A stretch of DNA of 64,000 nt, from positions 3,647 through 67,646 of the IMG/VR virus record IMGVR_UViG_3300044675_005321; one strand, 5' to 3'. The position numbers and the translations under genes were made by a program. The notes below the pieces were generated by a model. That model was not told the origin of the DNA. It was given only the letters and a program-made list of their open reading frames with translations, and did no database searches. Positions 35,247 through 55,735 of this stretch are shown piece after piece (positions within the stretch are counted from its first letter, which is position 1; each line of letters starts with the position of its first letter). This stretch comes from a virus.

Positions 35247-35723
35247 ATGCTGTGTTATATCTTGATCTTATCACTTTTTACACATGATCAATCGATCGAT
35301 TACTCAAAAAAACTAAGTAAAACTTTTCAAAATAGATTGAAAACATGTAAGATGATCGCCCAAGAAGCTAAGAATCAAGCGATTGATCCAGTTCTAGCAG
35401 TTTCAATCGCATTCAACGAATCTAAGTTCACACAAGAAGCGATTGCGTTTGATGGCAAAGGTTTTGGCCCTATGCAGGCAACGCCGCGCCTATGGTGTGA
35501 AAACAAGAAACTTGAAAATTGCGACCTTATCAAGGCCGGTGTGACAGCCCTTAGAACCTATCTAGAAATTCACGACGGTGATGAGTTTCAAGCGGTCAAG
35601 GCGTATGCAGGCAAAGGCCAAAAGGCGCATAACTATGCTCGCCGTATTCTTAGAATCAAAGCTAAAACAAATCACCTACTAAAGGGAATCAAAGATGAAG
35701 ATCTCATTATCATTGAAAACTAA
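35247..35723 (+). CDS. Lytic transglycosylase (SLT-like) with N-terminal hydrophobic anchor
   Basis: IDPVLAVSIAFNESKF, GPMQ and AVKAY motifs. Confidence 0.8.
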   Translation: MLCYILILSLFTHDQSIDYSKKLSKTFQNRLKTCKMIAQEAKNQAIDPVLAVSIAFNESKFTQEAIAFDGKGFGPMQATPRLWCENKKLENCDLIKAGVTALRTYLEIHDGDEFQAVKAYAGKGQKAHNYARRILRIKAKTNHLLKGIKDEDLIIIEN

Positions 35724-36807
35724 TATCAAGGCAATCAAAGAAATCATCGCCGTAGCAAAACGCAAAAAAACGCCCGAATACTTGTCTTTTGTGCATGTTG
35801 ATTGTGTTGTTGTTGGCGCTAGTCGCTTTGTTCGTTTGTCCGCTACTGACCTTGAAACTACGATTACTCATAAATTAATTGATTGTGATTTCGTTGGGGA
35901 CTCATCATTTAGTACTTTGATTCATCATGAAGCGCTTAGTAAGTTATTACCTACCTATAAAACCATTGATATCATTGATGACAAGATCAAGGCCGGACAA
36001 GCTGAAATCACGCATCAAGTACTTGATTCCACAGATTACTCTGATATCTTGACCGATATTCAAGGAATTCAAGGGCAAGAAGACGCATACGCTTTAAATG
36101 ATACAGATATCATCGAACTTCGAAACGCTTTAGCTACGGCGCTAATTGCTTCCTCGAATGAAGAATCAAGGGTTCGATTGTGCAGCGTGTTTCTATCTAC
36201 AAATGATCAAGGTTTTCTAGTCGCTACCGCTACAGATGGACACCGCTTGACTATCTACAAAACAGGCATCAAAACCAATTTAAATGCGTTGCTTCCTAAA
36301 GGTCAAGTTCCGCTTCTTTGCGACGTACTCAATGGCAATGTTGACGCTCGAATTTGGGCAACAAAGAGTATGCTATATGTATCAAGGGGGCAAGATTTCA
36401 TTTTAGCGGTGCGCTTGATTGCTGAAGAATTCCCAGATATTTCACGCATCGTTCCAAAGAACAACGAATATATGATCACATTCAACAGCGCTCATCTTCA
36501 CAGCGTTAAAGAAGCGTTGTTATTTGCACAAGATAAAGCGGGAGCAGGCATCACTTTGAGACACCAAAAAGAAGGCAATAAGCTTTATCTTAGTCTCAAA
36601 GATTCCAGTACTACCGGTTTGACCTACGAATCAAAAGATGAAGGGTTTGCGCATATCGATTATCAAATCAGTTTTTCCCCTAAGTATCTTTTAGATGCGC
36701 TACAAAATACGCCGATCATGCTTGCAGGTCAAAGCGAATTTTCCCCCGTACTATGTACAGAAGAGACAGGGAAGATTTTAAATGTGCTTATGGCACGTCG
36801 TGGCTAA
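35695..36807 (+). CDS. dnaN: DNA polymerase III beta sliding clamp homologue
   Basis: LSATDLE, ATDGHRL, RLIAEEFPDISRIVP, FSPKYLLDAL and VLMARR motifs; 370 aa. Confidence 0.9.
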   Translation: MKISLSLKTNIKAIKEIIAVAKRKKTPEYLSFVHVDCVVVGASRFVRLSATDLETTITHKLIDCDFVGDSSFSTLIHHEALSKLLPTYKTIDIIDDKIKAGQAEITHQVLDSTDYSDILTDIQGIQGQEDAYALNDTDIIELRNALATALIASSNEESRVRLCSVFLSTNDQGFLVATATDGHRLTIYKTGIKTNLNALLPKGQVPLLCDVLNGNVDARIWATKSMLYVSRGQDFILAVRLIAEEFPDISRIVPKNNEYMITFNSAHLHSVKEALLFAQDKAGAGITLRHQKEGNKLYLSLKDSSTTGLTYESKDEGFAHIDYQISFSPKYLLDALQNTPIMLAGQSEFSPVLCTEETGKILNVLMARRG

Positions 36808-36830
36808 TTTTAATAAGTACTTGATTGACT

Positions 36831-37598
36831 ATGAAAACTAATGAAATTTATCATGGTGATTGTCTTGATTTGCTACCTAGTATTCCTAGTAAATCTGTTG
36901 ATATGATCCTTTGTGATTTGCCTTATGGTACAACGGCCTGCGAGTGGGATTCTATTATTGATATGACTAGACTTTGGCAGGAGTATGAGAGAGTGATTAA
37001 GGATAACGGCGCTATCGTTTTGACGGCCTGCAACGAATTCACTTTTGCTTTGTACAATAGCAATCCAAAGATGTTTAAATATCGGTGGATATGGAAGAAG
37101 TCATTGGCTACCGGATTTCTCTTAGCAAAGAAGCAGCCTATGAGGAATTTTGAGGATGTACTTGTCTTTTACAAGAAACAGCCGACATATAATCCTATTT
37201 CCTTCAGAAAGGGGAAGAGTGAGCATAGAGATGTGAATATGAAGCATATTGATTGCAATGTTTATGCTCAAAATAGGCTAAAAAGAAAGGTAGCAAATGA
37301 AGATAGATTGCCAACTACGATTTTAGAATTTCAATCCGCAAATACTGGATCAAGCATTAACATAACAATCCATCCAACACAAAAGCCGGTTGCATTGTTT
37401 GAGTACCTAATCAAGACCTACACCAATGAAAATGAGTTAGTCTTAGATAATTGTAGCGGTAGCGGTACAACGGCCATCGCGTGCATGAATACCAATAGAA
37501 GGTTTATTTGCATTGAGAGGGATGAAACCTATCACCGCAAGAGCATTGAGAGAATGAACAACCATGAACCACTATTCCATTTGGGGGATAAATGCTAG
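36831..37598 (+). CDS. Beta-class N6A/N4C DNA methyltransferase, array copy 1
   Basis: DLPY motif IV, HPTQKP, DNCSGSGTT motif I. Confidence 0.92.
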   Translation: MKTNEIYHGDCLDLLPSIPSKSVDMILCDLPYGTTACEWDSIIDMTRLWQEYERVIKDNGAIVLTACNEFTFALYNSNPKMFKYRWIWKKSLATGFLLAKKQPMRNFEDVLVFYKKQPTYNPISFRKGKSEHRDVNMKHIDCNVYAQNRLKRKVANEDRLPTTILEFQSANTGSSINITIHPTQKPVALFEYLIKTYTNENELVLDNCSGSGTTAIACMNTNRRFICIERDETYHRKSIERMNNHEPLFHLGDKC

Positions 37599-38356
37599 AA
37601 GAAAACAAGATACATTTAGGCGATTGCCTTGACCTTATGCCGTCCATTCCCAGTAAATCGGTTGATATGATCCTTTGCGATTTGCCTTATGGGACAACGG
37701 CTTGCGAGTGGGATTCTATCATTGACATGTCTAAACTTTGGCAAGAGTATGAACGAGTGATCAAAGATAATGGGGCTATCGTTCTGACAGCATCATCATA
37801 TTTTACTTTTAAACTTTGGCAGAGCAATATTCGACTATTTAGATATAAGATTGTATGGAATAAGAGATTAAAAGTGGGCTTGTTTGACGCAACAAGAAGA
37901 CCAATGAGACAGCATGAAGATATTTTAATTTTCTATAAAAAGTCGCCTTGTTACAATCCACAAATGACTTTATCAGATACGGCTTACTCTATGAAAGCCG
38001 GTCAAAAAGTGCATCCTAAATTTCAAAAAGATCCTATTTTTACACAAGAAAAGAAAGACGTAAAAACAAGATATCCATCGGATATCATACAAATAGATTC
38101 AGCGAACTTAACAAGAGAACGAGGACTACACCCAACGCAAAAACCTGTAGCATTGTTTGAGTATCTAATCAAAACCTATACAAACGAGAACGAACTAGTC
38201 TTAGATAATTGTAGCGGTAGCGGTACAACGGCCATCGCGTGCATGAACACCAATCGCCGGTTTATCTGCATTGAGAGAGATGAAACATATCATCGCAAGT
38301 CAATTGAGAGACTGGCAAATCATGAACCTTTATTGCACATGGGGGATAAATGCTAG
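37592..38356 (+). CDS. Beta-class N6A/N4C DNA methyltransferase, array copy 2
   Basis: Same motifs; different central region. Confidence 0.92.
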   Translation: MLEENKIHLGDCLDLMPSIPSKSVDMILCDLPYGTTACEWDSIIDMSKLWQEYERVIKDNGAIVLTASSYFTFKLWQSNIRLFRYKIVWNKRLKVGLFDATRRPMRQHEDILIFYKKSPCYNPQMTLSDTAYSMKAGQKVHPKFQKDPIFTQEKKDVKTRYPSDIIQIDSANLTRERGLHPTQKPVALFEYLIKTYTNENELVLDNCSGSGTTAIACMNTNRRFICIERDETYHRKSIERLANHEPLLHMGDKC

Positions 38357-39117
38357 AAGAAAACAAGATACATTTAGGCGATTGCCTTGACCTTATGCCG
38401 TCCATTCCCAGTAAATCGGTTGATATGATCCTTTGCGATTTGCCTTATGGGACAACGGCTTGTGAATGGGACAGCATCATTGACATGGCTAGGCTTTGGG
38501 CTGAGTATGAACGAGTGATTAAGGATAATGGAGCTATTGTTTTGACGGCTAACTCAGTATTCACCTTTAAACTTTATAACTCAAATCCCAAAATCTTTAA
38601 ATACAAACAAGTGTGGGATAAAATTATAAAAGTTGGGCACTTGTCAGCAAATAGAATACCCATGCGACAACATGAGGATGTTTTATTATTTTGCAGGGGG
38701 ACGCCTCCTTATTTTCCACAAATGTCAAAAGGTGCACCATATACTATGAAGAGAAACAATAGAATGGAATCTGTGGCTTACTTAGGAGGATCAGCAACGA
38801 AAAGAAGTGATACAAATAATAACGGAGAACGATATCCTTCAGATATTATACAAATAGCATCTGCGGTATTCTCAAAAGATAAAGGGCAACACCCAACACA
38901 AAAGCCAGTAGCCTTGTTTGAGTACCTAATCAAAACCTATACCAACGAAAACGAGCTAGTCTTAGATAACTGCTCAGGCAGTGGCACCACCGCCGTTGCC
39001 TGCATAAATACAAACCGCCGGTTTATCTGCATTGAGAGAGATGAAACATATCATCGCAAGTCAATTGAGAGACTGGCAAATCATGAACCACTATTGCACA
39101 TGGGGGATAAATGCTAG
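38350..39117 (+). CDS. Beta-class N6A/N4C DNA methyltransferase, array copy 3
   Basis: Same motifs; different central region. Confidence 0.92.
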   Translation: MLEENKIHLGDCLDLMPSIPSKSVDMILCDLPYGTTACEWDSIIDMARLWAEYERVIKDNGAIVLTANSVFTFKLYNSNPKIFKYKQVWDKIIKVGHLSANRIPMRQHEDVLLFCRGTPPYFPQMSKGAPYTMKRNNRMESVAYLGGSATKRSDTNNNGERYPSDIIQIASAVFSKDKGQHPTQKPVALFEYLIKTYTNENELVLDNCSGSGTTAVACINTNRRFICIERDETYHRKSIERLANHEPLLHMGDKC

Positions 39118-39872
39118 AAGAGAATAAGATCCACCTTGGCGATTGCCTTGACCTCATGCCATCCATTCCCAGTAAATCGATTGATATGATCCTTTGCGAT
39201 CTTCCCTATGGAACGACGGCCTGCGAGTGGGATTCTATTATTGATATGACTAGACTTTGGCAGGAGTATGAGAGAATTATCAAGGACAACGGCGCAATTG
39301 TTTTGACGGCCAATAATGTCTTTACTTTCAAGCTATGGTCAAGCAATCCAGCGCTTTTTAGATATAGATGGATTTGGATCAAGAGTTTAAAAACTCAATT
39401 TCTCAATGCAAATAGAAGACCTTTATCGCAATTTGAGGAAGTGATGATTTTTTACAAAAAACAGCCAAAATATAATCCTCAAATGCAAGATGGCAAAGCA
39501 TATAAAATAAGTAATGAGAAATCTTCAATCGGTGGCAAGAGTGCCTACGGTGATGAAAAACTGGTTAGAATTCCAACAGTCAATAATGGTGAATACTTTC
39601 CCAGTGATATCTTAGAATTTTCAAATGAGATAGGATTTCATCCAACACAGAAGCCGGTGGCCTTGTTTGAGTACCTAATCAAAACCTATACCAATGAAGG
39701 CGAAATCGTACTTGATAATTGCAGCGGTTCAGGGACTACAGCGATAGCGTGTTTAAATAGCAATAGGCAATTTATTTGCATGGAGAAAGACGAAACCTAT
39801 TATAAAAGATCACTTGATAGACTAGCTAATCATGAACCTCTCTTATATTTTACAAACCACAATGAAAACTAA
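39111..39872 (+). CDS. Beta-class N6A/N4C DNA methyltransferase, array copy 4
   Basis: Same motifs; different central region. Confidence 0.92.
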   Translation: MLEENKIHLGDCLDLMPSIPSKSIDMILCDLPYGTTACEWDSIIDMTRLWQEYERIIKDNGAIVLTANNVFTFKLWSSNPALFRYRWIWIKSLKTQFLNANRRPLSQFEEVMIFYKKQPKYNPQMQDGKAYKISNEKSSIGGKSAYGDEKLVRIPTVNNGEYFPSDILEFSNEIGFHPTQKPVALFEYLIKTYTNEGEIVLDNCSGSGTTAIACLNSNRQFICMEKDETYYKRSLDRLANHEPLLYFTNHNEN

Positions 39873-39934: not shown

Positions 39935-40327
39935 ATGGATGATTTACAAAGAACGCTTATGATTGAAGAGATGCTTGAACGTGGTGAAGTGTATGAAGGT
40001 TATAGGGACAATAAACATTTCACGCTTGAGCATAAGCGCTTTTATAACAAATGCACGAAAGAACGCTTCTTAAGTGAGTTCTCTTACGATTTGACTTGGC
40101 GGGAGATTGCATCAAGGCTAGGCATAAGCCAATATGCAGCGCGGGAACTTGGTACTTATTATGGCGTCGGTAAGAAACAATTGAAAAAGAATAGAACTGT
40201 GACAGATGAACAGATCATTGAGGCGTTCAAAGAGTACCCTAAAAAATCGATCAAAGAACTCAAGGATGATTTACAATTGTGCTTCTCTACTGTTTGGCGT
40301 CGTGCTAAAGAACTAGGACTAATATGA
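39935..40327 (+). CDS. Putative HTH DNA-binding protein
   Basis: TWREIASRLGISQYAAR and a second HTH-like segment. Confidence 0.6.
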   Translation: MDDLQRTLMIEEMLERGEVYEGYRDNKHFTLEHKRFYNKCTKERFLSEFSYDLTWREIASRLGISQYAARELGTYYGVGKKQLKKNRTVTDEQIIEAFKEYPKKSIKELKDDLQLCFSTVWRRAKELGLI

Positions 40328-40683
40328 TCAAGGATATTCCGCCCAAATTATTTGATGAGTTTGATTTTTCTTTTGTTGAATACGGTAATGAAGATTTATC
40401 AGATCCAGAGATCATCAAGAATCAAATCAACCTTCGTTTCTACATGCTTGAGAGATACATGCATGAGAAAACAGAAGAACAAGTAGTAAAAGAGATTAAT
40501 GATTTAGCTTCTTTTATCTTGTATTTGCCCTATCAAGCAACCAAATTGACATTTAATCAAAAAACATACTTCTATTGTATCTTAGAAGGTTGCAGGCATT
40601 ATCGTTGGTATTTTGGACTAACAAAAGAAGAAAAATTAAATTTGAGAAAAACCTATCTTGCCTCTTTTGGAATAAGAAAATGA
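40324..40683 (+). CDS. Hypothetical protein
   Basis: ATGA coupling at both ends. Confidence 0.6.
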   Translation: MIKDIPPKLFDEFDFSFVEYGNEDLSDPEIIKNQINLRFYMLERYMHEKTEEQVVKEINDLASFILYLPYQATKLTFNQKTYFYCILEGCRHYRWYFGLTKEEKLNLRKTYLASFGIRK

Positions 40684-41261
40684 AAACAAATATCCGAATG
40701 GACGGCGAGCGCAAGAATATTTTTGAAATCTTGGCCTTGCTTGATTGGGAACCAGATCAAAGACTCATGGATTTAGAAGAAAAATTAATGAATGGTTACT
40801 TTGATCAAAAGAGAAAAAGAACTAAAAGATATGTAGAACCAAAATTCACTAAGGCCGAATTAAAAAAATTATGTGCTCAACAAATACCTTGGGGGCAAAT
40901 TGCAGAGAAGCTAGGGGAATCCGTAATACGTGTACGGGATTACGCACAAAGAAACGGTATTACAAATCATATATCTGTTGGCAGACCTAAGATTATAGAT
41001 GCACAAGAAAAGATGGCTAGTCGTATTAGATATTATGATCGTATTTCACCTTCTGAAGAGAAGATTGATCAGCTCATGATCTTGTATGGGGGGTTCATTG
41101 GCCTACTTGCATTTAAACTAAACAAACCTTTTAGAATAGCAAGAAATGTGCTGATACATAGAAAGCGATATGATGCTTGGCTAAAGTATAATTATTATCT
41201 AGGGCGCGGCGGTAGGCCTAAGACTCTTGAAGAAATTAGAGCAAAACAAAATGATCAATAA
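40680..41261 (+). CDS. Putative HTH DNA-binding protein
   Basis: PWGQIAEKLGESVIRVRDYA; start placed at MKTNIR. Confidence 0.55.
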   Translation: MKTNIRMDGERKNIFEILALLDWEPDQRLMDLEEKLMNGYFDQKRKRTKRYVEPKFTKAELKKLCAQQIPWGQIAEKLGESVIRVRDYAQRNGITNHISVGRPKIIDAQEKMASRIRYYDRISPSEEKIDQLMILYGGFIGLLAFKLNKPFRIARNVLIHRKRYDAWLKYNYYLGRGGRPKTLEEIRAKQNDQ

Positions 41262-41306: not shown

Positions 41307-43898
41307 TTAAATGATACAAGCCCCGCCGGCGCATGCTAGTTCTTGCGCTTGTATTGTTTCATCTGTACCCTCTAAAACGCTATCAAAATCAACGGCGTTG
41401 CTTGATCTAAGAGATACCCATAAATCAAATGCGTCTGATCGATCTTGCTTCTTTTGGCGTGCTCGCTCTAAGTCTTTTTCTAGTGTTGTCTTTGATTTGT
41501 GTGTCTCATATGCTTGTTCGATTTGTTCAACCTCTTCAAAGTACATATTTTGATTTTCTACATGATCATAGACCGCTCTAAATGGGGGCTGTTGGTAGTC
41601 ATAATCCCCGCTCATTCCTAAGAAAGATACACCGCAAAAATATTCTTGATTATCAAAGACAAATTCGCCCGCTTCTTCCCACTCATGGGGGCGAACGTTG
41701 CAAGTGTTTGAAACATTGTGATCAGAACCCTCAAGGGACTTAGGGCGTGCGTTCCCATTCTTTACCCACGAATTATAGACCATTTTAACAAGTGATAAGA
41801 ATTCAGTAGCTTTGAGATCGTTTTTAAACAAGTTTTCGGGGTTGCATTCTACAGCAAAGATCAAACATTTATCTGTCCCATTCGCCGCCCATACACTATT
41901 TTTCACCGCTTGGGGGTTTAGTTCCTCAAACTTTTGAACAAGTGCAGAATCCGCGGGAACTTGTACATGTCTTAAAAATCTTCTTGAGTGTTCGGGATGG
42001 ATACCAGACGCACAACCAAGGATCACCGAAGCTGTCCCGCTAGGTTTAACACATGTAATTCTTGCAGCTTGATTGATACCGATCTTCTTTGCAAATTGCT
42101 TATTGATCACGATTGCAAATTCAGCCAGTGATTTAAGTAAAAAGGCCGCTCTATCCTCTTCATGCTTGAAAAAGAATGCTGAATTTGCAAGGCCAGTCAA
42201 TGACACACCTAGCAACGCTTCACGCTCAACGATTTGTTCAGATACCGGCCCTAAATATTCTGATTTAGTGTAACTTGCTTGAAGGGTGCCCAGCTTTACA
42301 GCGTTCTTCACCGCTACATAGAACGCATCAATTGAGTCAATAGAGAAATCTTTAAACTTAGATGCGTTAACCTCTGTCAAATTGCATGCTTGCCAACCGC
42401 TTTGAAATGTATAGCCTTGATCTTCATATTTGGATCTATTTTCGGGGTTGATCAAGTCTAATGTGTACTCTTCAACAATTTGCCCTTCTTTGTCCTTGAT
42501 GAGCATAGGACACATAGAAATTTCAACGCAATTATGAACCACTACACCATTAGCAATGAAACTATGTGTTTTGTTTTCTGTAAGATCGTAGACTTCTTCT
42601 TTCACAACAAAATCAAAAGAGACTACGGGGGAAACTCCTACATTTGAAACATTGTCATCTAGTACTACATGCACAAGATCACCAGGCAACAAATCGCCAG
42701 CCTCAATCCATCCTTTAGACGTCATGATTTGATGGTTTCTAGTACATTCTACAAAGTATCCATTTTCTAAACTCAATCGGTACACGTCTTGAATACCGGT
42801 ACAGAACACGCCCTTATCGGTACTCTCTGAAAAAGTACCTTGTTTGAATCGGGGGTCAATTCTCAAAGAAGTTTTCTGATTCTCCTCAAACAATTGCTTA
42901 GCAGTCTTATAACCTTCAGCAGTCAAGATCTTTGTTCTACCGCTAACGCATGGGTTGAAACAGAATTCTGTTGACTCTGTAAACACAAAACCAGGTTCAC
43001 CCCATTGAGGCACATTATCAAGAAACTTTTTCATAAAATCTTGTTTGTCAAGTTTATTTTTCAATGCTACCGCAGAAATATTAGCACGTGCACGATATGG
43101 CGCTTCTTTCCACCAATTACCGGTTTTCGCTGTCCACATATCCGCGTCATCCATGCTAAAAATTGCAATGGTAGCGCTTCGACGCACGCCACCGCTTAAC
43201 ACGCAATCAGATGCAATACAAACAATATCTAAACAATCAATGCTTCTTAGTTTTTGCCCAGCCCTTGAAACAAGTATCTTTTCAATCATTTGTAAACTGA
43301 ATTTTAGGGGAATAGGCCCAGGCGCTTTACCCCCATGGGACAGCGCCGCGCCTTTCTTTCTGATCAAGGAATAGTTAAAGATGGGCATTGTATCAGATTG
43401 ACCGAGATAGAATTGAATAAGGGCATCAAGCGCATCAGCCCAGCCCTCAATCGTATCTTTGATCATGATAACTTTCATTTGTGCATTGTTGATTTGATCA
43501 GATGAGATCACAGGGGGCAATTTTGAAATATGGTGCTTCTGTACAGAATAACCAACGCCACAGCCACACAATAGCAACCACAATGACTCAGCAAAGAAGC
43601 GGGGGCGATCACAAAATGACGTTGTACAATTGAAAATACGCCAAGGCTTGTCAAGAATTGCCTTCCCTCCGAATTGTAAAGATCTTTGAGAACCTAAGAT
43701 CTCTTTGCGCTTTAGTGCATCTTCAATCTCGTTCAAATCCTCATAGATTTCAATGGTATCGATGAACTTTGTTGCATGCATATTCATCAGCCGATCTACA
43801 GATTCAGACCAGTTTTCACGGCGCTTTTTAGATGGTAAATACTTTGCATATGTTTGCTTGAATGTGAAATTTGCAAGATTGTTGCGTTGAATATCCAT
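41307..43898 (-). CDS. nrdJ: Class II (B12-dependent) ribonucleotide reductase with intein
   Basis: FNCT, GCGVG, GGVRRSA, NP/CVE, CNL, CVKPSGT and C-terminal CAGGAC; no beta subunit nearby; GGAGG RBS before MDIQ. Confidence 0.9.
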   Translation of the reverse strand: MDIQRNNLANFTFKQTYAKYLPSKKRRENWSESVDRLMNMHATKFIDTIEIYEDLNEIEDALKRKEILGSQRSLQFGGKAILDKPWRIFNCTTSFCDRPRFFAESLWLLLCGCGVGYSVQKHHISKLPPVISSDQINNAQMKVIMIKDTIEGWADALDALIQFYLGQSDTMPIFNYSLIRKKGAALSHGGKAPGPIPLKFSLQMIEKILVSRAGQKLRSIDCLDIVCIASDCVLSGGVRRSATIAIFSMDDADMWTAKTGNWWKEAPYRARANISAVALKNKLDKQDFMKKFLDNVPQWGEPGFVFTESTEFCFNPCVSGRTKILTAEGYKTAKQLFEENQKTSLRIDPRFKQGTFSESTDKGVFCTGIQDVYRLSLENGYFVECTRNHQIMTSKGWIEAGDLLPGDLVHVVLDDNVSNVGVSPVVSFDFVVKEEVYDLTENKTHSFIANGVVVHNCVEISMCPMLIKDKEGQIVEEYTLDLINPENRSKYEDQGYTFQSGWQACNLTEVNASKFKDFSIDSIDAFYVAVKNAVKLGTLQASYTKSEYLGPVSEQIVEREALLGVSLTGLANSAFFFKHEEDRAAFLLKSLAEFAIVINKQFAKKIGINQAARITCVKPSGTASVILGCASGIHPEHSRRFLRHVQVPADSALVQKFEELNPQAVKNSVWAANGTDKCLIFAVECNPENLFKNDLKATEFLSLVKMVYNSWVKNGNARPKSLEGSDHNVSNTCNVRPHEWEEAGEFVFDNQEYFCGVSFLGMSGDYDYQQPPFRAVYDHVENQNMYFEEVEQIEQAYETHKSKTTLEKDLERARQKKQDRSDAFDLWVSLRSSNAVDFDSVLEGTDETIQAQELACAGGACII
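42531..42950 (-). mobile_element. Mini-intein (140 aa, no endonuclease)
   Basis: Starts CVSGRTKILT, block B CTRNHQI, ends VYDLT...SFIANGVVVHN followed by extein Cys. Confidence 0.92.
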
Positions 43899-43973
43899 GT
43901 TTATTTCCTCCATGGTTTACAGTGATGAAAGTTCCTAAGTATAAATCTTTAAATATGTGTAAACAATTTTATT

Positions 43974-44415: not shown

Positions 44416-45243
44416 CTAGAAGTTATCATCACCAAATAAATTATATAAATTTGATACTCTTTTATTAGCAATAGCTGCATATTCTGGATTTATTTCACTA
44501 GAAATAAAATTTCTTTTTAATTTTAGGCACATTTTAGCTGTGGTCCCACTCCCCACAAAGGGATCATAAACTAAATCCCCCTCATTACTCCAAGAAAAGA
44601 GGTGATCTTCTACTAACTTCTCAGGAATTATAGCAGGATGTGAAAAGGCAAAATTATCTTTGGTAGAATGCCCCTTACCTACATTATATTCCCATACATT
44701 AGTTCTTCTACCATACTTTTGATATCCTCCCCTAGGATGCTTATATAATTGACCAGAATGTAGTCTTTTTGTACCAGAATCACCCTTTCGCTCTTCTTTA
44801 TTCTCCCTATCACAGATTAAGTTTATTGTCTTGGGTTTACCCTTACTAAAAACAAACATATATTCAAAAGTTTGCCAATATCCTTGATTATTACCACATG
44901 CACCTCTGGGTTTTTTCAGGTATATCATTGTATCAAATAATCCAAAACCTATCTGTTTAAAGTATAAAGCTTGTTTAAAAGATGAACCAGATTCATCCCA
45001 ATTTGTAGTCTGATCACCCACCACCCAAACAACAACTCCCCCAGATTTAGTAACTCTATATAAGCTAGTTATGATCCGCTCAATATCAATCTTAAAGTTA
45101 CCATCATAGTATCTCATATTGTCATATGGAGGTGATGTTATTGTTAAATCTAAAAAATCACTAGGCATTCTATTCATTGTACATATACAATCCTCTATAT
45201 AAACTTTATTTAGTTCTAGTGGAATATCATTAGTACTATGCAT
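44416..45243 (-). CDS. Beta-class DNA methyltransferase (SPPY, likely N4C), divergent from the others
   Basis: TSPPY, HPA and DPFVGSGTT motifs; AAGGAG RBS. Confidence 0.92.
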   Translation of the reverse strand: MHSTNDIPLELNKVYIEDCICTMNRMPSDFLDLTITSPPYDNMRYYDGNFKIDIERIITSLYRVTKSGGVVVWVVGDQTTNWDESGSSFKQALYFKQIGFGLFDTMIYLKKPRGACGNNQGYWQTFEYMFVFSKGKPKTINLICDRENKEERKGDSGTKRLHSGQLYKHPRGGYQKYGRRTNVWEYNVGKGHSTKDNFAFSHPAIIPEKLVEDHLFSWSNEGDLVYDPFVGSGTTAKMCLKLKRNFISSEINPEYAAIANKRVSNLYNLFGDDNF

Positions 45244-47659: not shown

Positions 47660-47719
47660 TGAATAGCACATGGTTTCTATGTTGTCAATAAATTTTACAA
47701 AATAAATTAAAAATATTTT
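47660..47719 (-). promoter_or_regulatory. Sigma70-type promoter with conserved upstream box
   Basis: AAAATATTTTTAATTTATTTTGTAAAATTTA-TTGACA-17 bp-TATTCA. Confidence 0.7.
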
Positions 47720-48606
47720 ACTTATCTTCTTTTGATAAAGACTCATAGTCTAATTCGTTGATTACTTTTTTGCTAAGTCCTGAATCACATAGACCCCAAG
47801 TCAAACAGCCGCTTAGGTATTCTTCTTCAAATAGTTCAAGCTGATCATCGTTTTTCAAGGCCCAGTCTAGAACCTCATCCACATTTCCACGCTTGAAAAA
47901 AGAGTAAACCGCATCTTTGCGCCCTTTTTGTTTGGCGAGCTCTTTTACTTCTGTCTCAAGCTGTCTAATACGCTCAAAGCGTTCGGGCGATTCATGGTAT
48001 GCGTGCTTGATTTCTGATTTGCGGGCAAAGATGCAAGGGAAACAGCCAACACGTGAAAAACCTCTTGTATATAAAGGATTCGGCGCAACATTAAATCTTT
48101 TGTGAATTGCGATTACGTCGTCAACAGTCCATTCAATCAAGGGGCGCCAGATTGTACTTTCATCTTTTTCCTCAAACGCACCTAGTTTGCTTCGTGCTTG
48201 GCTTTCTTCTTTGCGAATACCTACAGCGCTCACAGGTTTCTTTTTATACTTTGCCCGTACGTCATCCATGTAGTCTAATTGGGGGGCTACCTTGAGTTCA
48301 AGCGTACAAGTTCGAATTACATTAGAAGGGAAGAATATTTTATTAAGTACTAATTCTTCATACCCCCCCCCTATTCTCTGTCTTGAAATACTTTTCGTTT
48401 CGTAGTCTCTTGATCTCTTTTTTCAAAACAAACTTCTCTAAATAGTTCAAGTACTCATATGTTGCTTCATGCTCCCAGCCGGTATCACAGAACACAGCTT
48501 CAAAATCAAGGTTCAATTCAAGTAGATGCAAGATCATTGCTGTTGAATCTTTGCCGCCCGATACATTGGCTACAAGTGGGCGATCTTTCAAAAAATCAAG
48601 GTTCAT
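47718..48606 (-). pseudogene. PAPS-reductase-family (PP-loop) gene split by a frameshift in a G9 tract
   Basis: 5' part has SGGKDS and DTGWE; the other frame continues FPS..RTCTLELK, GIRKEES.AR, RVGCFPC. Removing one G at 48363-48371 gives one 295-aa ORF. Confidence 0.85.
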
Positions 48607-51045: not shown

Positions 51046-51345
51046 ATGAAAAAGATCAAGCCAGTACATAGGCAATTGGTACACTTAGACCGCCCGCAAA
51101 CAGCTATCTTGAAACTGATTGCTATGATGGGCGAAGTATCACAGAAAGAAGCTATCACAGCTATTTTCAACATGGGATTAGGCGCACTACTCAAGGCAAT
51201 CAATGAAAACGATGATATCCAGTTTTTAGCTACGCTCAAGACCTATGGTAAAGATGAAACAACCAACCTTCTTTTTACAGAACTTTTTAAGCTTAGCGAC
51301 TCAAGGAAGGCAACCAATGAACGCACTGAATCAGACAAAACTTGA
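51046..51345 (+). CDS. Hypothetical protein, possibly ribbon-helix-helix
   Basis: AGGAG RBS; beta-alpha-alpha-like N-terminus. Confidence 0.55.
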   Translation: MKKIKPVHRQLVHLDRPQTAILKLIAMMGEVSQKEAITAIFNMGLGALLKAINENDDIQFLATLKTYGKDETTNLLFTELFKLSDSRKATNERTESDKT

Positions 51346-51919
51346 GCTATTCGAGTTTCTTTGTTGCAAAGACCATCTAGAAGAAGAAAAACCTATGAGA
51401 AATAGAACACTATATGAGGATCTAAACAACGAATTAGCGGCGTCAAAAGATATCGCTGATCTTTGTGAACGATCATCAATTTTACTAGCAAATATCATCA
51501 AGCTTGCAGACAACCCCGATGCACTTGATATCTTTACAAAACAAGCTGAAGTTCTAAGCTATATGTTCAAAGATATGGCTTACAAATGCCCTAAAAAGGC
51601 GATTCGTTCAATGGTATCAGAATGGATTAGGGAAGAAAAAACACTACGTGAAATGGCTGATTTGCTCAATCAACAAGGCTTGACCACACACACCGGCAAG
51701 ATGTGGACTCATGCGCTTGTGGCGTATGCTTTTAAAGATTTGTTCGAGGCAAACAAAACCAATCCCGCGCAAGTGAGCGCCCCATTACGTGCAAAAGAAT
51801 TGAGAGATCGGGGATGGACACTAGACGCAATCGCCCACGCCCTCAATGACGAAGGTTTCAGCACGCTACGGGGTGGGGCGTATTCTTCAGGCACTGTGCA
51901 TCACCTACTAAAGGATTGA
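51317..51919 (+). CDS. Protein with two recombinase-type DNA-binding domains, no catalytic domain seen
   Basis: TLREMADLLNQQGLTT..GKMWT and TLDAIAHALNDEGFST..GGAYS. Confidence 0.65.
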   Translation: MNALNQTKLELFEFLCCKDHLEEEKPMRNRTLYEDLNNELAASKDIADLCERSSILLANIIKLADNPDALDIFTKQAEVLSYMFKDMAYKCPKKAIRSMVSEWIREEKTLREMADLLNQQGLTTHTGKMWTHALVAYAFKDLFEANKTNPAQVSAPLRAKELRDRGWTLDAIAHALNDEGFSTLRGGAYSSGTVHHLLKD

Positions 51920-52961: not shown

Positions 52962-53214
52962 TTTTTTATATAGTTTCAATGGTTGCGTTTTTATTACGGC
53001 GCTTCTGTACTTGCTCATATGGATTTTGAAGCTTGTCCACGAACTACGATTTGTACACATTGGCGCCCTTCGCATGTTCGCTTTATGCGTGTTACTAGGT
53101 TTCTTTGTGTACTTCTTATTCATGCTTAGTTTACGAGCGCCGGCGATCATTGCGTCTTTCATGTTTGTTAATATGATCATCGGTGCGTTGGAAGGTGAGG
53201 GCAATGAAAACTAA
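52954..53214 (+). CDS. Small multi-TM membrane protein
   Basis: Three hydrophobic segments; overlaps both neighbours. Confidence 0.55.
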   Translation: MVDFLYSFNGCVFITALLYLLIWILKLVHELRFVHIGALRMFALCVLLGFFVYFLFMLSLRAPAIIASFMFVNMIIGALEGEGNEN

Positions 53215-54211
53215 TTGCGTTTATCATGGTGATTGTCTTGATTTGTTGCCTAGCATACCGAGTAAATCTGTTGACATGATACTTTGTGATCTTCCGTACG
53301 GGACTACAGCTTGTGCGTGGGATTCAATTATCCCTTTAGATAGGTTATGGAGAGAATACGAACGAGTAATCAAGGATAATGGGAACATTGTTTTAACCGC
53401 TCAAGGTATGTTCGGGGCTAAGCTAATGACTTTCAGAGAAACATGGTTCAATCATGATTATGTATGGATAAAGAACCAACATTCAAACTTCGCTTTAGTA
53501 GGTATCCAGCCACTACGTATCTTTGAAAATGTACTTGTATTCAGACCACCAAGAAAAGACGATATAGATAGAGCATTTAACAAAGAACTAAGGGCATATT
53601 TCAAGCAAGTAAATGAGTTCATAGGTTTAAATAGATCACAGATAGAACAGATCATAGGAAATAAGGGCTATCATCATTCTTACGGCGTGACGGGTTGTCA
53701 ATTTGAACTATGCACACAGAAAACATATGAACAATTGATCGAGTGTTTCAAGATTGACCAGATGCAGGGCTATTTGAACTTTGAAACTTTGCAATCTATG
53801 AAAGAAGAATTGATTCCTTTTACTTTTAACTTTGATGATCGTATTAAAAGTACAAAGCAAGCAAAGAAAGATGCTTTTGGAAGTACTGACACTTTAGGCA
53901 ATTGCGCAAAAGATTACAAAGAACACACAAGCAAAGAATACGAAAACTATCCAAGAAATACGCTATATTTTGACTGTGAACGAGGACAACACCCAACACA
54001 GAAACCGGTATCACTATTTGAATATTTAATAAGAACCTATTCAAATGAAAATGAAGTAATCTTAGACAATTGCAGCGGTTCAGGGACTACAGCGATTGCG
54101 TGTTTAAATAGTAATAGGCAATATATTTGCATAGAAAAAGATGAAACCTACTACAAAAAATCACTTGAGCGCATAGCTAATCATGAACCCTTGTTAAACT
54201 TAGGACAATGA
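53204..54211 (+). CDS. Beta-class DNA methyltransferase copy 5 (long central region)
   Basis: DLPY, HPTQKP and DNCSGSGTT motifs. Confidence 0.92.
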   Translation: MKTNCVYHGDCLDLLPSIPSKSVDMILCDLPYGTTACAWDSIIPLDRLWREYERVIKDNGNIVLTAQGMFGAKLMTFRETWFNHDYVWIKNQHSNFALVGIQPLRIFENVLVFRPPRKDDIDRAFNKELRAYFKQVNEFIGLNRSQIEQIIGNKGYHHSYGVTGCQFELCTQKTYEQLIECFKIDQMQGYLNFETLQSMKEELIPFTFNFDDRIKSTKQAKKDAFGSTDTLGNCAKDYKEHTSKEYENYPRNTLYFDCERGQHPTQKPVSLFEYLIRTYSNENEVILDNCSGSGTTAIACLNSNRQYICIEKDETYYKKSLERIANHEPLLNLGQ

Positions 54212-54444: not shown

Positions 54445-54726
54445 ATGAACAAGTTTGAAAAGATAGCAATTGACCTATCAACCATTTTATCTATGAAGAA
54501 TGAGGCCTATGGAAACGCTTTTGACAAGACAACACAGATACTCACGCTTCTTTATCCTCATGGAATCAAAGTAGACCAGTACAAAGATATTCATGTCATT
54601 GTTCGTATGCTTGATAAGCTGTCAAGGATTGCAAGAGACAATGACCCAATGGGGGAAAGTCCGTATATGGACATTGCAGGATATTCTATTTTGGCACTTG
54701 CTAGGGATGAGAACAATGAGAACTAA
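54445..54726 (+). CDS. DUF1599/nucleotide-modification-associated-like protein
   Basis: KNEAYGNAF...RMLDKLSRI...DIAGYSIL; TTGAGA-17-TATACT promoter and AGGAG RBS upstream. Confidence 0.65.
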   Translation: MNKFEKIAIDLSTILSMKNEAYGNAFDKTTQILTLLYPHGIKVDQYKDIHVIVRMLDKLSRIARDNDPMGESPYMDIAGYSILALARDENNEN

Positions 54727-55735
54727 TTGCGTGTTGCATGGTGATTGTCTTGACTTGTTGCCAAGTATACCCGATAAATCGATCGATATGATACTTTGTG
54801 ATCTTCCGTACGGGACTACAGCATGTTCATGGGACTCTATCATCCCTTTAGATAGGTTATGGGCTGAGTATGCAAGAGTGATCAAAGATAATGGGAACAT
54901 TGTTCTGACAGCTCAAGGCATGTTTTGTGCAAAGCTTATGACATTCAAAGAAACATGGTTTAATCACGATTACGTGTGGATAAAGAACCAACATTCAAAC
55001 TTCGCTTTGGTAGGTATCCAGCCACTACGAATCTTTGAAAATGTACTTGTATTCAGACCACCAAGAAAAGACGATATAGAGAGGGCATTTAACAAAGAAC
55101 TAAGGGCATATTTCAAGCAAGTAAATGATTTCATAGGTTTGACGGCTGAAAAGATAGCAAAGATAATAGGCCATATGGGTTACCATCATTCTTACGGCGT
55201 TAATGGTTCACAGTTCGCACTATGTACAAAAGAAACCTATGATCAATTAATTGAGTGTTTCAAGATTGACCAGATGGACGGATACTTGACCTTTGAAACT
55301 TTGCAATCTATGAAAGAGAAACAATTTAACGCACCATATACTTTTAATTTTGATGACCGTATAAGAAGTACAAAACAGACAAAGAGTAATGATTTTAATA
55401 GGCAGATGTATGGAGACAAAACAAATCAAAAATACAAAGGGCATATAAGCAAAGAATATGAAAACTACCCAAGAAACACGCTATATTTTGATTGTGAAAG
55501 GGGTATGCATCCAACACAGAAGCCAGTAGCGTTGTTTGAGTATTTAATAAGAACCTATTCAAATGAGAATGAAGTTATCTTAGACAATTGTTCAGGTTCA
55601 GGGACAACAGCGATAGCGTGTTTAAATAGCAATAGGCAATTTATTTGCATGGAGAAAGATGAAACCTATTACAAAAGATCACTTGAACGCATAGCTAATC
55701 ATGAACCCTTGTTAAACTTGATCAATGAGAAATAA
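54716..55735 (+). CDS. Beta-class DNA methyltransferase copy 6 (paralog of copy 5)
   Basis: Same motifs; start placed at MRTNC. Confidence 0.92.
   Translation: MRTNCVLHGDCLDLLPSIPDKSIDMILCDLPYGTTACSWDSIIPLDRLWAEYARVIKDNGNIVLTAQGMFCAKLMTFKETWFNHDYVWIKNQHSNFALVGIQPLRIFENVLVFRPPRKDDIERAFNKELRAYFKQVNDFIGLTAEKIAKIIGHMGYHHSYGVNGSQFALCTKETYDQLIECFKIDQMDGYLTFETLQSMKEKQFNAPYTFNFDDRIRSTKQTKSNDFNRQMYGDKTNQKYKGHISKEYENYPRNTLYFDCERGMHPTQKPVALFEYLIRTYSNENEVILDNCSGSGTTAIACLNSNRQFICMEKDETYYKRSLERIANHEPLLNLINEK

What the first reader, a model, noticed from the sequence alone, without database searches (positions are those of the whole stretch)
36831..39872. Methyltransferase accordion: conserved repeats alternating with variable target-recognition cassettes
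Seen: four translationally coupled beta-class MTases with near-identical termini and dissimilar middles. Identity is patchwork: copies 2/3 share 123 identical bp (37582-37704, 38340-38462) and 74 bp (38255-38328, 39016-39089); copies 1/4 share 60 bp (36933-36992, 39216-39275); copies 1/2 share 52 bp (37438-37489, 38196-38247). Established: in beta-class enzymes the TRD lies between motifs IV-VIII and I. Inference: the conserved junctions act as recombination arms that add, delete or swap specificities, an expandable anti-restriction array that needs no recombinase of its own.
Basis: partly seen in the sequence, partly recalled or inferred. Interest (0 to 1): 0.85.

Follow-up and report, generated by a model that had tools for sequence, protein, structure and literature searches.

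The report
Phage methyltransferase array with swappable cassettes
A lake phage carries four back-to-back DNA methyltransferase genes that share nearly the same ends but have different DNA-reading middles, and related phages have gained, lost and swapped these middles by recombination, probably to shield their DNA from many host restriction enzymes.

Summary
Window 36825-39872 holds four intact, overlapping beta-class (PF01555) DNA methyltransferase genes.

The shared ends are kept mainly by selection on the protein, because fourfold sites are near saturation. Recent conversion tracts lie on top of this (permutation p=0.0001).

Relatives with the same backbone carry 0, 1, 2 or 4 genes between the sliding-clamp and RNR genes. 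In one relative the clamp DNA is 97-100% identical and identity breaks at the first methyltransferase.

A second, unrelated lake-phage backbone carries 1-3 copies at one locus. There, only the middle of one gene is replaced between otherwise 100% identical contigs.

The M4 middle is 443 bp identical to genes in that other backbone.

Best reading: an orphan, multi-specificity anti-restriction array that diversifies by homologous recombination in conserved coding arms.

Methylation motifs are untested. No copy-number variation was seen in reads. A composite assembly of this particular four-gene order is not excluded.

The scan has noted other cassette-type phage methylases on other DNA, but with different architectures. 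I class this as a new variant of known kinds.

The parts
36825..37598 (+). M1, beta-class DNA methyltransferase, 257 aa (TTG start; ATG at 36831). Its N-terminus is of the 'outer' MKTN type.
   Evidence: ORF. PF01555 E=3.3e-30. The N-terminal tract 36848-36872 is shared with M5.
37592..38356 (+). M2, beta-class DNA methyltransferase, 254 aa.
   Evidence: E=4.7e-32. It is 43% identical over its full length to M.Phi145I of Lactococcus phage phi145. The best recognition-core match in any fetched locus is 32%.
38350..39117 (+). M3, beta-class DNA methyltransferase, 255 aa.
   Evidence: E=6.7e-29. The best recognition-core match elsewhere is 57%, in L014.
39111..39872 (+). M4, beta-class DNA methyltransferase, 253 aa. 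Its C-terminus is of the 'outer' type, like M5 and M6.
   Evidence: E=1.7e-27. Fourfold-site identity of the C module to M5 is 0.88. The tract 39740-39788 is shared with M6.
37203..37370 (+). Hypervariable recognition core (putative TRD) of M1.
   Evidence: Coordinates. Majority-residue frequency is 0.24-0.49 in this region across 144 family members.
37964..38128 (+). Hypervariable recognition core of M2.
38722..38889 (+). Hypervariable recognition core of M3.
39483..39638 (+). Hypervariable recognition core of M4.
   Evidence: It is 100% identical as protein to L011, L015, L200, L202, L203 and L246.
37371..37792 (+). Junction module 1: the C module of M1, the 7-nt overlap and the N module of M2.
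   Evidence: Coordinates. The stretch 37482-37635 (154 bp) matches exactly the junctions in L008, L010 and L186 of another phage backbone.
38129..38550 (+). Junction module 2: the C module of M2, the overlap and the N module of M3.
   Evidence: It holds the second copy of the 123-bp exact tract.
38890..39311 (+). Junction module 3: the C module of M3, the overlap and the N module of M4.
   Evidence: It holds the second copy of the 74-bp exact tract.
39174..39616 (+). M4 cassette shared exactly (443 bp) with methyltransferase genes of another phage backbone.
   Evidence: Exact match to L012, L013, L188 and L189. Identity profiles fall to 53-80% on both sides.
35695..36807 (+). Phage sliding-clamp gene, the left border of the island.
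   Evidence: PF02767 and PF02768. The DNA is 97-100% identical to L136 up to about 36840, then falls to about 67%.
39935..40327 (+). HTH protein of 130 aa, the right border. It travels with the methyltransferase module in two backbones.
   Evidence: Weak HTH Pfam matches. Homologs follow the methyltransferases in 19 loci of the second backbone.
53183..54211 (+). M5, a paralog with a middle about 100 aa longer, in a second island.
54593..55735 (+). M6, a paralog with a long middle.

Best explanation
The region is a hypervariable island of orphan Type II beta-class DNA methyltransferase genes in a roughly 68-kb contractile-tailed lake phage. The enzymes are most likely N6-adenine methyltransferases.

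Each gene has three parts:
- a conserved N module holding motif IV (DLPY);
- a conserved C module holding HPTQKP and the AdoMet motif SGSGTT;
- a hypervariable core of about 55 residues between them, which is the target-recognition domain.

Because the conserved modules are repeated in frame, homologous recombination within them always yields a whole, in-frame enzyme. This holds between copies, between the phage's two islands, and between co-infecting phages of different lineages. Such recombination can replace one middle, delete copies or add copies.

**Shown here**
- The genes are intact and their junctions overlap.
- Their ancestry is mosaic.
- The array differs between relatives.
- Cassette replacement has its breakpoints in the conserved modules.

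**Inferred**
- Each copy methylates a different short motif.
- Together the copies pre-protect phage DNA from several host restriction systems.
- The four genes are expressed as one operon by translational coupling, together with the clamp gene upstream.
For: **Family.** The four genes match PF01555 at 1e-27 to 1e-32. Motif IV precedes motif I and the catalytic columns are invariant. The nearest solved structures are M.RsrI (8.7e-21) and M.MboIIA. M2 is 43% identical to M.Phi145I. That enzyme is listed as beta-class, makes GGWG(6mA) and protects against HphI (PMC4190342, abstract and passages).

**Mosaicism inside the genome.**

**Variation at the locus in the same backbone.**
- Window: 4 genes.
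- L136: 2 genes (clamp protein 99% identical).
- L088: 1 gene.
- L090: 2 genes.
- L181: 1 gene.
- L094 and L095: 0 genes.

**Second backbone.** Of 19 loci in which an HTH gene follows the methyltransferases, 14 have one copy, 2 have two and 3 have three.

**Cassette replacement.**
- L196 and L187 are 100% identical upstream and again from HPTQKP onward, but about 40% identical in the middle of copy 1.
- L185 and L196 share a 100% identical junction, yet both middles differ and the copy number is 2 against 3.

**Exchange across backbones.** Exact tracts of 443 bp and 154 bp are shared, although the nearest whole-genome relative is only 81-85% identical.

**Family-wide modularity.** Among 146 sequences the N and C modules average 84% identity and the TRD averages 28%. 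Spearman correlation between TRD and C similarity is 0.05. Of 164 pairs with near-identical N and C modules, 142 have TRDs no more than 50% identical.

**No redundancy within arrays.** Recognition-core identity is 0.12-0.30 in the window. In 13 other multi-copy loci (11 tandem arrays, plus L009 and L026) it is 0.05-0.29 over 19 pairs.

**Orphan status.** The neighbours are a clamp gene, HTH genes and an RNR gene. No nuclease partner is among the flanking genes that I scanned.
Against: - No methylation motif, activity or restriction protection was measured for any copy.
- The host is unknown. Bacterial and archaeal genomes hold only relatives of 47-55% identity.
- Logan contigs break at every conserved module, so no read or contig bridges two unique middles. 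The four joints seen had short sides (24-48 nt). The one that I traced (X4; the same letters form a loose end in X2) matches genes of the other backbone, not deletion variants. The other three were not traced.
- In run X3 one bin inside M2 had no cover.
- The array has 'resident-type' outer ends and 'other-backbone-type' inner junctions. A mis-threaded metagenome assembly could produce the same pattern.
- The lack of redundancy within arrays is not clearly different from random draws, because only 55 of all pairs in the family have TRDs at least 90% identical.
- The promoter and terminator scan found no more sites than in shuffles.
Confidence: 0.75

Rival explanations
1. The four-gene order in this record is a composite made by the metagenome assembler. 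On this reading the assembly path left the phage's single resident methyltransferase gene at a shared exact tract, ran through arrays of co-occurring phages and came back.
For: - The outer ends are of the type found in same-backbone relatives and in M5 and M6.
- The three inner junctions and the M4 middle match another backbone exactly over 154 and 443 bp.
- Exact repeats of 52-123 bp lie inside the array.
- Public contigs break at each conserved module.
Against: - Contigs holding the unique middles of M1, M2 and M3 are 100% identical to the window. They occur in the runs that also hold long flank pieces.
- Their contig depths are close to the flank depths in four runs from four studies. Roughly: X1 9, X2 7-8, X3 5-6, X4 3-4. 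The tool warns that such depths are rough.
- Arrays of 2-3 overlapping copies recur in independent assemblies. L196 and L198 are 100% identical over 6107 bp.
- Even a composite would be built from real multi-copy arrays.
Confidence: 0.12
2. The copies are not four independent specificities. They would work in pairs, either as strand partners for asymmetric sites (as two-domain Type IIS methylases do) or as heterodimers, since beta-class enzymes are argued to need dimers.
For: - The review PMC7544214 (passages) argues that class beta enzymes must dimerize.
- The dimer-forming conserved modules are 76-97% identical between copies.
- M.Phi145I reads an asymmetric motif.
- The overall tree pairs the copies as (M1,M4) and (M2,M3), with 47 of 76 informative sites.
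- One relative (L027) has two units fused in one ORF.
Against: - Single-copy loci are the commonest state: 14 of 19 in the second backbone, and 428 places in 396 cultured-phage records. One copy therefore suffices.
- Odd copy numbers (3) occur.
- The L027 fusion looks like a frameshift in the tail of the first gene.
- No multimer model could be run.
Confidence: 0.15
3. It is a dosage accordion. On this reading the tandem copies were amplified to raise methyltransferase output, as in poxvirus gene accordions.
For: The genes are arranged head to tail with repeated homologous arms.
Against: - Recognition cores are only 12-30% identical.
- Silent sites are saturated between most copies.
- No array examined has two like middles.
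Confidence: 0.03
4. The methyltransferases serve the phage's own replication or packaging control rather than defence evasion. An example would be marking DNA at the fork through the adjacent sliding clamp.
For: - The array lies directly after the phage clamp gene.
- The tail HEPL is nearly invariant across the aligned family members.
- Earlier notes of this scan proposed clamp-docking tails on phage methylases.
Against: - The second backbone carries the same genes with no clamp hit in its flanks.
- A regulatory role does not explain dozens of interchangeable recognition cores or copy numbers of 0-4.
Confidence: 0.08

Closest known systems
Orphan beta-class phage methyltransferase M.Phi145I / M.Phi93I of lactococcal 936-type phages (Murphy et al. 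2014, PMC4190342; I read the abstract and passages)
   Same: It has the same scaffold. It is 43% identical to M2 over the full length, with the same N and C modules and a different middle. It is phage-borne, has no nuclease partner, and was shown to protect against a restriction enzyme.
   Different: It is a single gene beside the terminase. No tandem copies and no cassette exchange are described in the parts that I read.
TRD movement between Type III mod genes of Helicobacter pylori by homologous recombination in motif-encoding DNA (Furuta and Kobayashi 2012, PMC3467074; I read the abstract and outline)
   Same: Both concern beta-class enzymes with a central TRD. In both, the TRD moves between non-orthologous genes through recombination in conserved flanking coding DNA, and TRD and non-TRD parts are incongruent. 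All three features are seen here.
   Different: That case is bacterial. The genes belong to restriction-modification systems at dispersed loci within one species. Here the genes are orphan phage genes, stacked head to tail with overlapping junctions, and the exchange crosses phage lineages.
Multispecific C5-cytosine methyltransferases of Bacillus subtilis phages (Gunthert et al. 1986 and Tran-Betcke et al. 1986; seen only as references in PMC4190342; the details are recalled)
   Same: This is also a phage answer to many host restriction systems, using several recognition modules on one conserved design.
   Different: There, several TRDs sit inside one polypeptide with one catalytic core (recalled). 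Here each TRD has its own complete enzyme, and the chemistry is amino-methylation.
Poxvirus-type gene accordions (recalled; my search for 'gene accordion' with 'phage', listed only bacterial and other cases)
   Same: Both are tandem copies of a host-range or counter-defence gene whose number can change by recombination between repeats.
   Different: Accordion copies are near-identical and transient. These copies are old and functionally diverged.

Membership tests
Beta-class (Type II) amino DNA methyltransferase, PF01555 N6_N4_Mtase | The profile match is above the curated cut-off. | tested here: met
   The scores are 97-112 bits against a cut-off of 26.7 for all four genes.
Beta-class (Type II) amino DNA methyltransferase, PF01555 N6_N4_Mtase | Motif IV (D/S-P-P-Y type) lies N-terminal to AdoMet motif I, with the variable recognition region between them. 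| tested here: met
   DLPY is at residues 31-34, HPTQKP and SGSGTT are at about residues 183-216, and the variable block lies between them. The class order follows PMC7544214 (passages).
Beta-class (Type II) amino DNA methyltransferase, PF01555 N6_N4_Mtase | The sequence is similar to solved members. | tested here: met
   M.RsrI matches at 8.7e-21 and M.MboIIA at 1.1e-18. DpnA and CcrM also match.
Beta-class (Type II) amino DNA methyltransferase, PF01555 N6_N4_Mtase | The fold has been confirmed. | tested here: inconclusive
   The AlphaFold2 model of M2, built with a 58-sequence alignment, had a mean pLDDT of 53. I did not use it.
Beta-class (Type II) amino DNA methyltransferase, PF01555 N6_N4_Mtase | Methyl transfer to N6-adenine at a defined motif. 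| not testable with these tools
   This is inferred from the D-x-P-Y motif (recalled rule) and from the 43% identity to the m6A enzyme M.Phi145I.
Orphan (solitary) phage methyltransferase | No cognate restriction endonuclease gene lies beside it. | tested here: met
   The neighbours are SLT, clamp, HTH proteins, two unknowns and RNR. Not every ORF of the window was scanned.
TRD movement by homologous recombination (Furuta and Kobayashi type) | The same TRD occurs in genes with different non-TRD parts or at different loci. | tested here: met
   The M4 TRD is 100% identical to L011, L015 and L200, while the C module is 77% identical. There is a 443-bp exact tract.
TRD movement by homologous recombination (Furuta and Kobayashi type) | The breakpoints lie in conserved motif-encoding DNA. 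| tested here: met
   The profiles return to 93-100% at the HPTQKP segment and within the N module.
TRD movement by homologous recombination (Furuta and Kobayashi type) | TRD and non-TRD relationships are incongruent. | tested here: met
   Spearman correlation is 0.05 (TRD against C) and 0.11 (TRD against N). Of 164 pairs with near-identical scaffolds, 142 have unlike TRDs. I built no formal tree test.
Gene accordion (transient tandem amplification) | The copies are near-identical. | tested here: not met
   Recognition cores are 12-30% identical and silent sites are saturated.
Gene accordion (transient tandem amplification) | Copy number varies within one population. | tested here: inconclusive
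   The contigs of four runs gave only short-sided joints. The one that I traced matches genes of other phages, and the other three were not traced. No long reads were available.
Integron or shufflon-type cassette array | A dedicated site-specific recombinase and attachment sites lie beside the array. | tested here: not met
   No recombinase adjoins the array. The nearest ORF with a Recombinase-domain fragment is at 51245-51919. The repeats are coding modules, not att sites.
Multispecific single-chain phage methyltransferase | Several TRDs lie in one polypeptide with one catalytic core. | tested here: not met
   Each ORF has its own motifs IV and I and its own stop codon.

The most novel reading that the evidence does not exclude
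The junction modules are each about 420 bp long and consist of a C module, a 7-nt overlap and an N module. They would be portable, in-frame recombination arms shared at up to 100% DNA identity by unrelated lake-phage lineages.

On this reading, any recognition cassette circulating in the community can be captured, stacked or discarded without a dedicated recombinase. At least 40 types occur among 146 sequences.

That would make a community-wide, integrase-free cassette library for methylation specificity.

A bolder corollary follows from the claim that beta-class enzymes work as dimers with nearly identical interfaces. Co-expressed copies might then also form mixed dimers that widen the set of protected sites.
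Probability: 0.35. Interest if true: 0.8.

Novelty: new variant of a known kind. Interest (0 to 1): 0.62.

Why it matters
Restriction-modification is the commonest bacterial defence. How uncultured phages keep pace with its diversity is largely unmeasured.

Here one constant enzyme scaffold carries dozens of natural recognition cores, and related phages hold from none to four of them at one locus. This gives three things:
- a readable record of the phage-host arms race in lakes;
- a natural library for learning how about 55 residues set the target of a beta-class methyltransferase;
- a ready design for engineering multi-motif methylation, for example to pre-methylate DNA for transformation of hard-to-transform laboratory strains.

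It also extends TRD movement, so far described for bacterial restriction-modification genes, to orphan genes of viruses and to exchange between viral lineages.

Tried and rejected
**Steps that led nowhere**
- Megablast of the region against 50,697 cultured phage records found only two short matches covering 1-2% of the query.
- The promoter and terminator scan found no more sites than in shuffles.
- The AlphaFold2 model of M2 was poor (mean pLDDT 53), probably because the alignment is too uniform in the conserved modules. I made no fold search and did not spend the second job.
- The genome-contig scan gave no close relative and no host (best 47-55% identity).
- Read evidence for copy-number variants failed. 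Logan contigs break at the conserved modules. The four joints had sides of 24-48 nt. The joint that I traced (37028 to 39321, X4), and the same letters as a loose end in X2, match genes in loci of the second backbone. The other three joints were not traced.
- In run X3 one bin inside M2 (37808-38041) had no cover. I draw nothing from that.
- The M4 cassette contig has a higher depth than the flanks in all four runs. This fits its presence in other phages, but the depths are rough.
- The scan with M2 as query found no copy of its recognition core elsewhere. The best full-length match was 73% and the best core match 32%.

**Literature.** Of my ten searches, seven looked for and found no paper on tandem whole-gene methyltransferase arrays in phages or on cassette exchange between them. 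The library holds open-access papers and bioRxiv only. Supplements were not consulted.

**Readings considered and rejected**
- Dosage accordion: the middles are unlike.
- Integron or shufflon: there is no recombinase and there are no att sites.
- Single-chain multispecific enzyme: each copy is complete.

**Caveats on counts**
- The census (146 sequences) still held up to three entries that are the window's own proteins listed again by the search (P0053, P0079, P0114). They were removed (144 sequences).
- Sequences longer than 275 aa, and M5 and M6, were left out of both counts.
- Several locus ids are the same contig fetched twice: L196=L008, L187=L010, L188=L013, and L184=L090=L014. In the within-array count these were counted once, and L198, a separate contig identical to L196 over its 6107 bp, was left out. 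The 19 loci are all different contigs.


Full report
**What is there.** The window is bases 3647-67646 of a 67,646-bp virus record rated 100% complete. It encodes baseplate and sheath-initiator proteins, a family A DNA polymerase, a PD-(D/E)XK exonuclease, a helicase, a RecU-like resolvase, ThyX, a class II RNR with an intein, and a large terminase. Public runs that hold the region are lake, freshwater, aquatic and, in one case, estuary metagenomes. Twenty rows from 20 studies hold a part of it.

Between the phage's sliding-clamp gene (35695-36807) and a small HTH gene (39935-40327) lie four same-strand ORFs of 253-257 aa. All are PF01555 methyltransferases, with E from 1.7e-27 to 4.7e-32. They are joined by 7-nt ATGCTAG overlaps behind a GGGGGA stretch.

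The catalytic DLPY motif, the HPTQKP segment and the SGSGTT AdoMet motif are invariant in all four. DLPY comes first, which is the class beta order (PMC7544214, passages). The nearest solved structures are M.RsrI and M.MboIIA.

The genome holds seven PF01555 genes in all. Two further paralogs with longer middles lie at 53183-54211 and 54593-55735, and an unrelated one lies at 44416-45243 on the minus strand.

**Checking the observation.** The pair of copies that is most alike changes along the gene:
- M2=M3 at both ends;
- M1=M4 in codons 36-45;
- M1=M2 in codons 206-215.

Among the 76 sites of the four-copy alignment that split the copies two against two, 47 group (M1,M4)(M2,M3), 17 group (M1,M2)(M3,M4) and 12 give the third grouping.

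I permuted polymorphic sites inside the conserved modules alone. The long runs for M1-M4 (N module), M2-M3 (N and C modules) and M1-M2 (C module) were reached in none of 10,000 shuffles. The other eight pair-by-module tests gave p=0.02-0.40.

The ends are not near-identical as DNA. Fourfold-degenerate sites agree at only 0.33-0.58 for most pairs. The exceptions are M2-M3 in the N module (0.88) and M1-M2 in the C module (0.68). M4's C module agrees with M5 and M6 at 0.88 and 0.72.

So the copies are old, their ends are held by selection on the protein, and a few recent conversion tracts lie on top.

**Relatives with the same backbone.** I used the terminase as an anchor in IMG/VR and in metagenome contigs. 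The locus between clamp and RNR holds:
- four genes in the window;
- two different, non-overlapping genes in L136 (terminase 97%, clamp 99% as protein);
- one 343-aa gene in L088 (terminase 98%);
- two genes in L090 (terminase 91%);
- one gene in L181;
- none in L094 and L095 (terminase 69%).

More distant relatives (L099, L141, L143) have neither clamp nor methyltransferase there. Contigs that end before the locus (L089, L091, L137, L144) say nothing.

Against L136 the clamp DNA is 97-100% identical up to about 36840. Identity then drops to about 67% inside M1 and recovers to 80-97% from about 39620. The island is therefore bounded by the conserved ends of the first and last gene.

Whole-record counts of PF01555 matches also differ. 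The window's record has 7 matches. L090's record has 5, two of them fragments at the record ends. L088's record, 84% complete, has 1.

**A second backbone.** Scans with the methyltransferases themselves brought in a second group of lake-phage contigs. Apart from this module, blastn at E 1e-10 aligned only one or two short stretches of about 69-75% identity with the window. In this group the methyltransferases are followed by homologs of the window's HTH gene, and in some loci also by homologs of the two genes after it.

In 19 such loci, 14 have one methyltransferase, 2 have two and 3 have three. The compositions differ. The junctions are the same 7-nt overlaps.

Two comparisons show the mechanism directly:
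- L196 and L187 come from different metagenomes. They are 100% identical upstream and over the first 110 nt or so of copy 1. Identity falls to about 40% across the middle and returns to 93-100% at the HPTQKP segment.
- L185 and L196 share a 100% identical junction between copies 1 and 2. Yet both middles differ, and L185 has two copies where L196 has three. Its last C module matches that of L196's third copy.

**Exchange between backbones.** The M4 middle (39174-39616, 443 bp) is identical to genes in L012, L013, L188 and L189. M4's first 60 nt and last 170 nt are only 53-80% identical to them. The M1/M2 junction (37482-37635, 154 bp) is identical to junctions in L008, L010 and L186. The nearest whole-genome relative of the window is only 81-85% identical, so these tracts are recent transfers.

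The array's outer ends are of the type seen in L088, L136, M5 and M6: an MKTN start and a tail ending in NEN. Its three inner junctions are of the second-backbone type. The simplest history is that an array interior was grafted into a resident gene by crossovers in the N and C modules.

**Family-wide picture.** The 120 best clusters are 61-86% identical, and all come from environmental sources. Among 146 sequences of normal length:
- the N and C modules average 84% identity;
- the TRD region averages 28%;
- TRD similarity is uncorrelated with C (rho 0.05) or N (rho 0.11) similarity;
- 142 of 164 pairs with near-identical N and C modules have TRDs no more than 50% identical;
- single-linkage clustering gives 40 TRD groups at 50% identity and 67 at 60%.

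Conservation drops sharply over residues 125-179 of M2. The motif V-VIII segment can also be uncoupled from the core. For example, M1 against L186 is 95% identical in V-VIII but 47% in the core.

In cultured phages the family is common but mostly single-copy, with 396 records and 428 places, all under 60% identity. One member has been characterised. M.Phi145I is 43% identical to M2. It makes GGWG(6mA) and protects against HphI (PMC4190342).

**How it most likely works.** Each copy is a complete orphan enzyme, and the recognition core sets the motif. The copies in any one array or multi-copy locus are unlike: 0.12-0.30 in the window and 0.05-0.29 in 13 others. This fits several specificities rather than dosage.

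The conserved modules are in frame and repeated. Recombination within them therefore swaps, deletes or adds units and still leaves working genes. No dedicated recombinase is beside the array. The phage has general recombination genes.

The steps that remain inferred are the activity of each copy, its motif, the protective role and operon expression.

**Weak points.** No read or contig bridges two unique middles, because public contigs break at the conserved modules. The joints seen there had short sides. The one that I traced belongs to genes of the second backbone, and the other three were not traced. So copy-number variation within this phage's population is not shown.

The graft pattern is also what a composite assembly would look like. 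Against that rival:
- the unique middles of M1-M3 occur at 100% identity in the same four runs as long flank pieces;
- their contig depths are close to the flank depths in each run (depths are rough);
- multi-copy arrays recur in independent assemblies.

I put the composite-assembly rival at about 0.12.

**Comparison with what is known.**
- The mechanism matches TRD movement in the Type III mod genes of Helicobacter pylori (PMC3467074, abstract).
- The role matches orphan phage methyltransferases (PMC4190342).
- The purpose matches the multispecific C5 enzymes of Bacillus phages (recalled; cited in PMC4190342).

The new element is the architecture. Whole enzymes are stacked with overlapping, portable junction modules. 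Copy number runs from 0 to 4 at one locus. Cassettes and junctions are shared across unrelated phage lineages.

Seven of my literature searches found no description of this.

Earlier notes of this scan describe other modular phage methylases on other genomes. These are C5 arrays within one chain, and split beta-class enzymes with TRD-only genes. They have different architectures. I tested none of them.

**Verdict.** I class this as a new variant of known kinds and give it an interest of 0.62.

Noticed in passing
window 41307-43913 (-): The class II RNR gene carries an intein (Intein_splicing, E=5.8e-13). In L090 and L136 the RNR matches in two abutting pieces over a shorter span. L088 matches in one piece like the window. 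The intein therefore seems present in some relatives and absent in others.
   Followed up: partly
window 44416-45243 (-), 53183-54211 (+), 54593-55735 (+): The genome holds seven PF01555 genes in 67.6 kb. M5 and M6 form a second island before the portal region. Their recognition regions are about 100 aa longer and they are about 87% identical to each other. Relatives L020 and L026 have one or two such genes there.
   Followed up: partly
L027:1077-2858: Two methyltransferase units are read as one 594-aa ORF. The linker looks like the out-of-frame tail of the first gene. This is either a frameshift fusion or a sequencing error.
   Followed up: partly
window 39935-41261 and loci L194, L206, L208: The genes after the array (HTH 130 aa, ORF 119 aa, ORF 228 aa) travel with the methyltransferases in an otherwise unrelated backbone. 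The 119-aa ORF is 79% identical there. The 130-aa and 228-aa proteins seem to share an HTH-like segment. Their role is unknown.
   Followed up: no
C-termini of M1-M6, e.g. window 37560-37595: A tail with HEPL, followed by L or F, is nearly invariant across the aligned family members. The array lies directly after the phage's sliding-clamp gene. Earlier notes proposed clamp docking. The second backbone shows no clamp hit in its flanks.
   Followed up: no
window 51245-51919 (+): A 224-aa ORF ends in a fragment of the serine-recombinase 'Recombinase' domain (E=1.7e-10) and has an HTH_62 match. It may be a truncated or split integrase-like gene.
   Followed up: no
window 47718-48269 (-): A PAPS-reductase-family ORF matches only profile positions 101-173 of 175. 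The N-terminal part is therefore missing from this ORF.
   Followed up: no
window 39246-39689 in runs X1-X4: The contig holding the M4 middle has a higher depth than the flanking phage contigs in all four runs laid (13.4 against about 9, 13.8 against 8-10, 11.4 against about 6, and 14.7 against 3-6). This is as expected if other phages in the same lakes carry the same cassette.
   Followed up: partly
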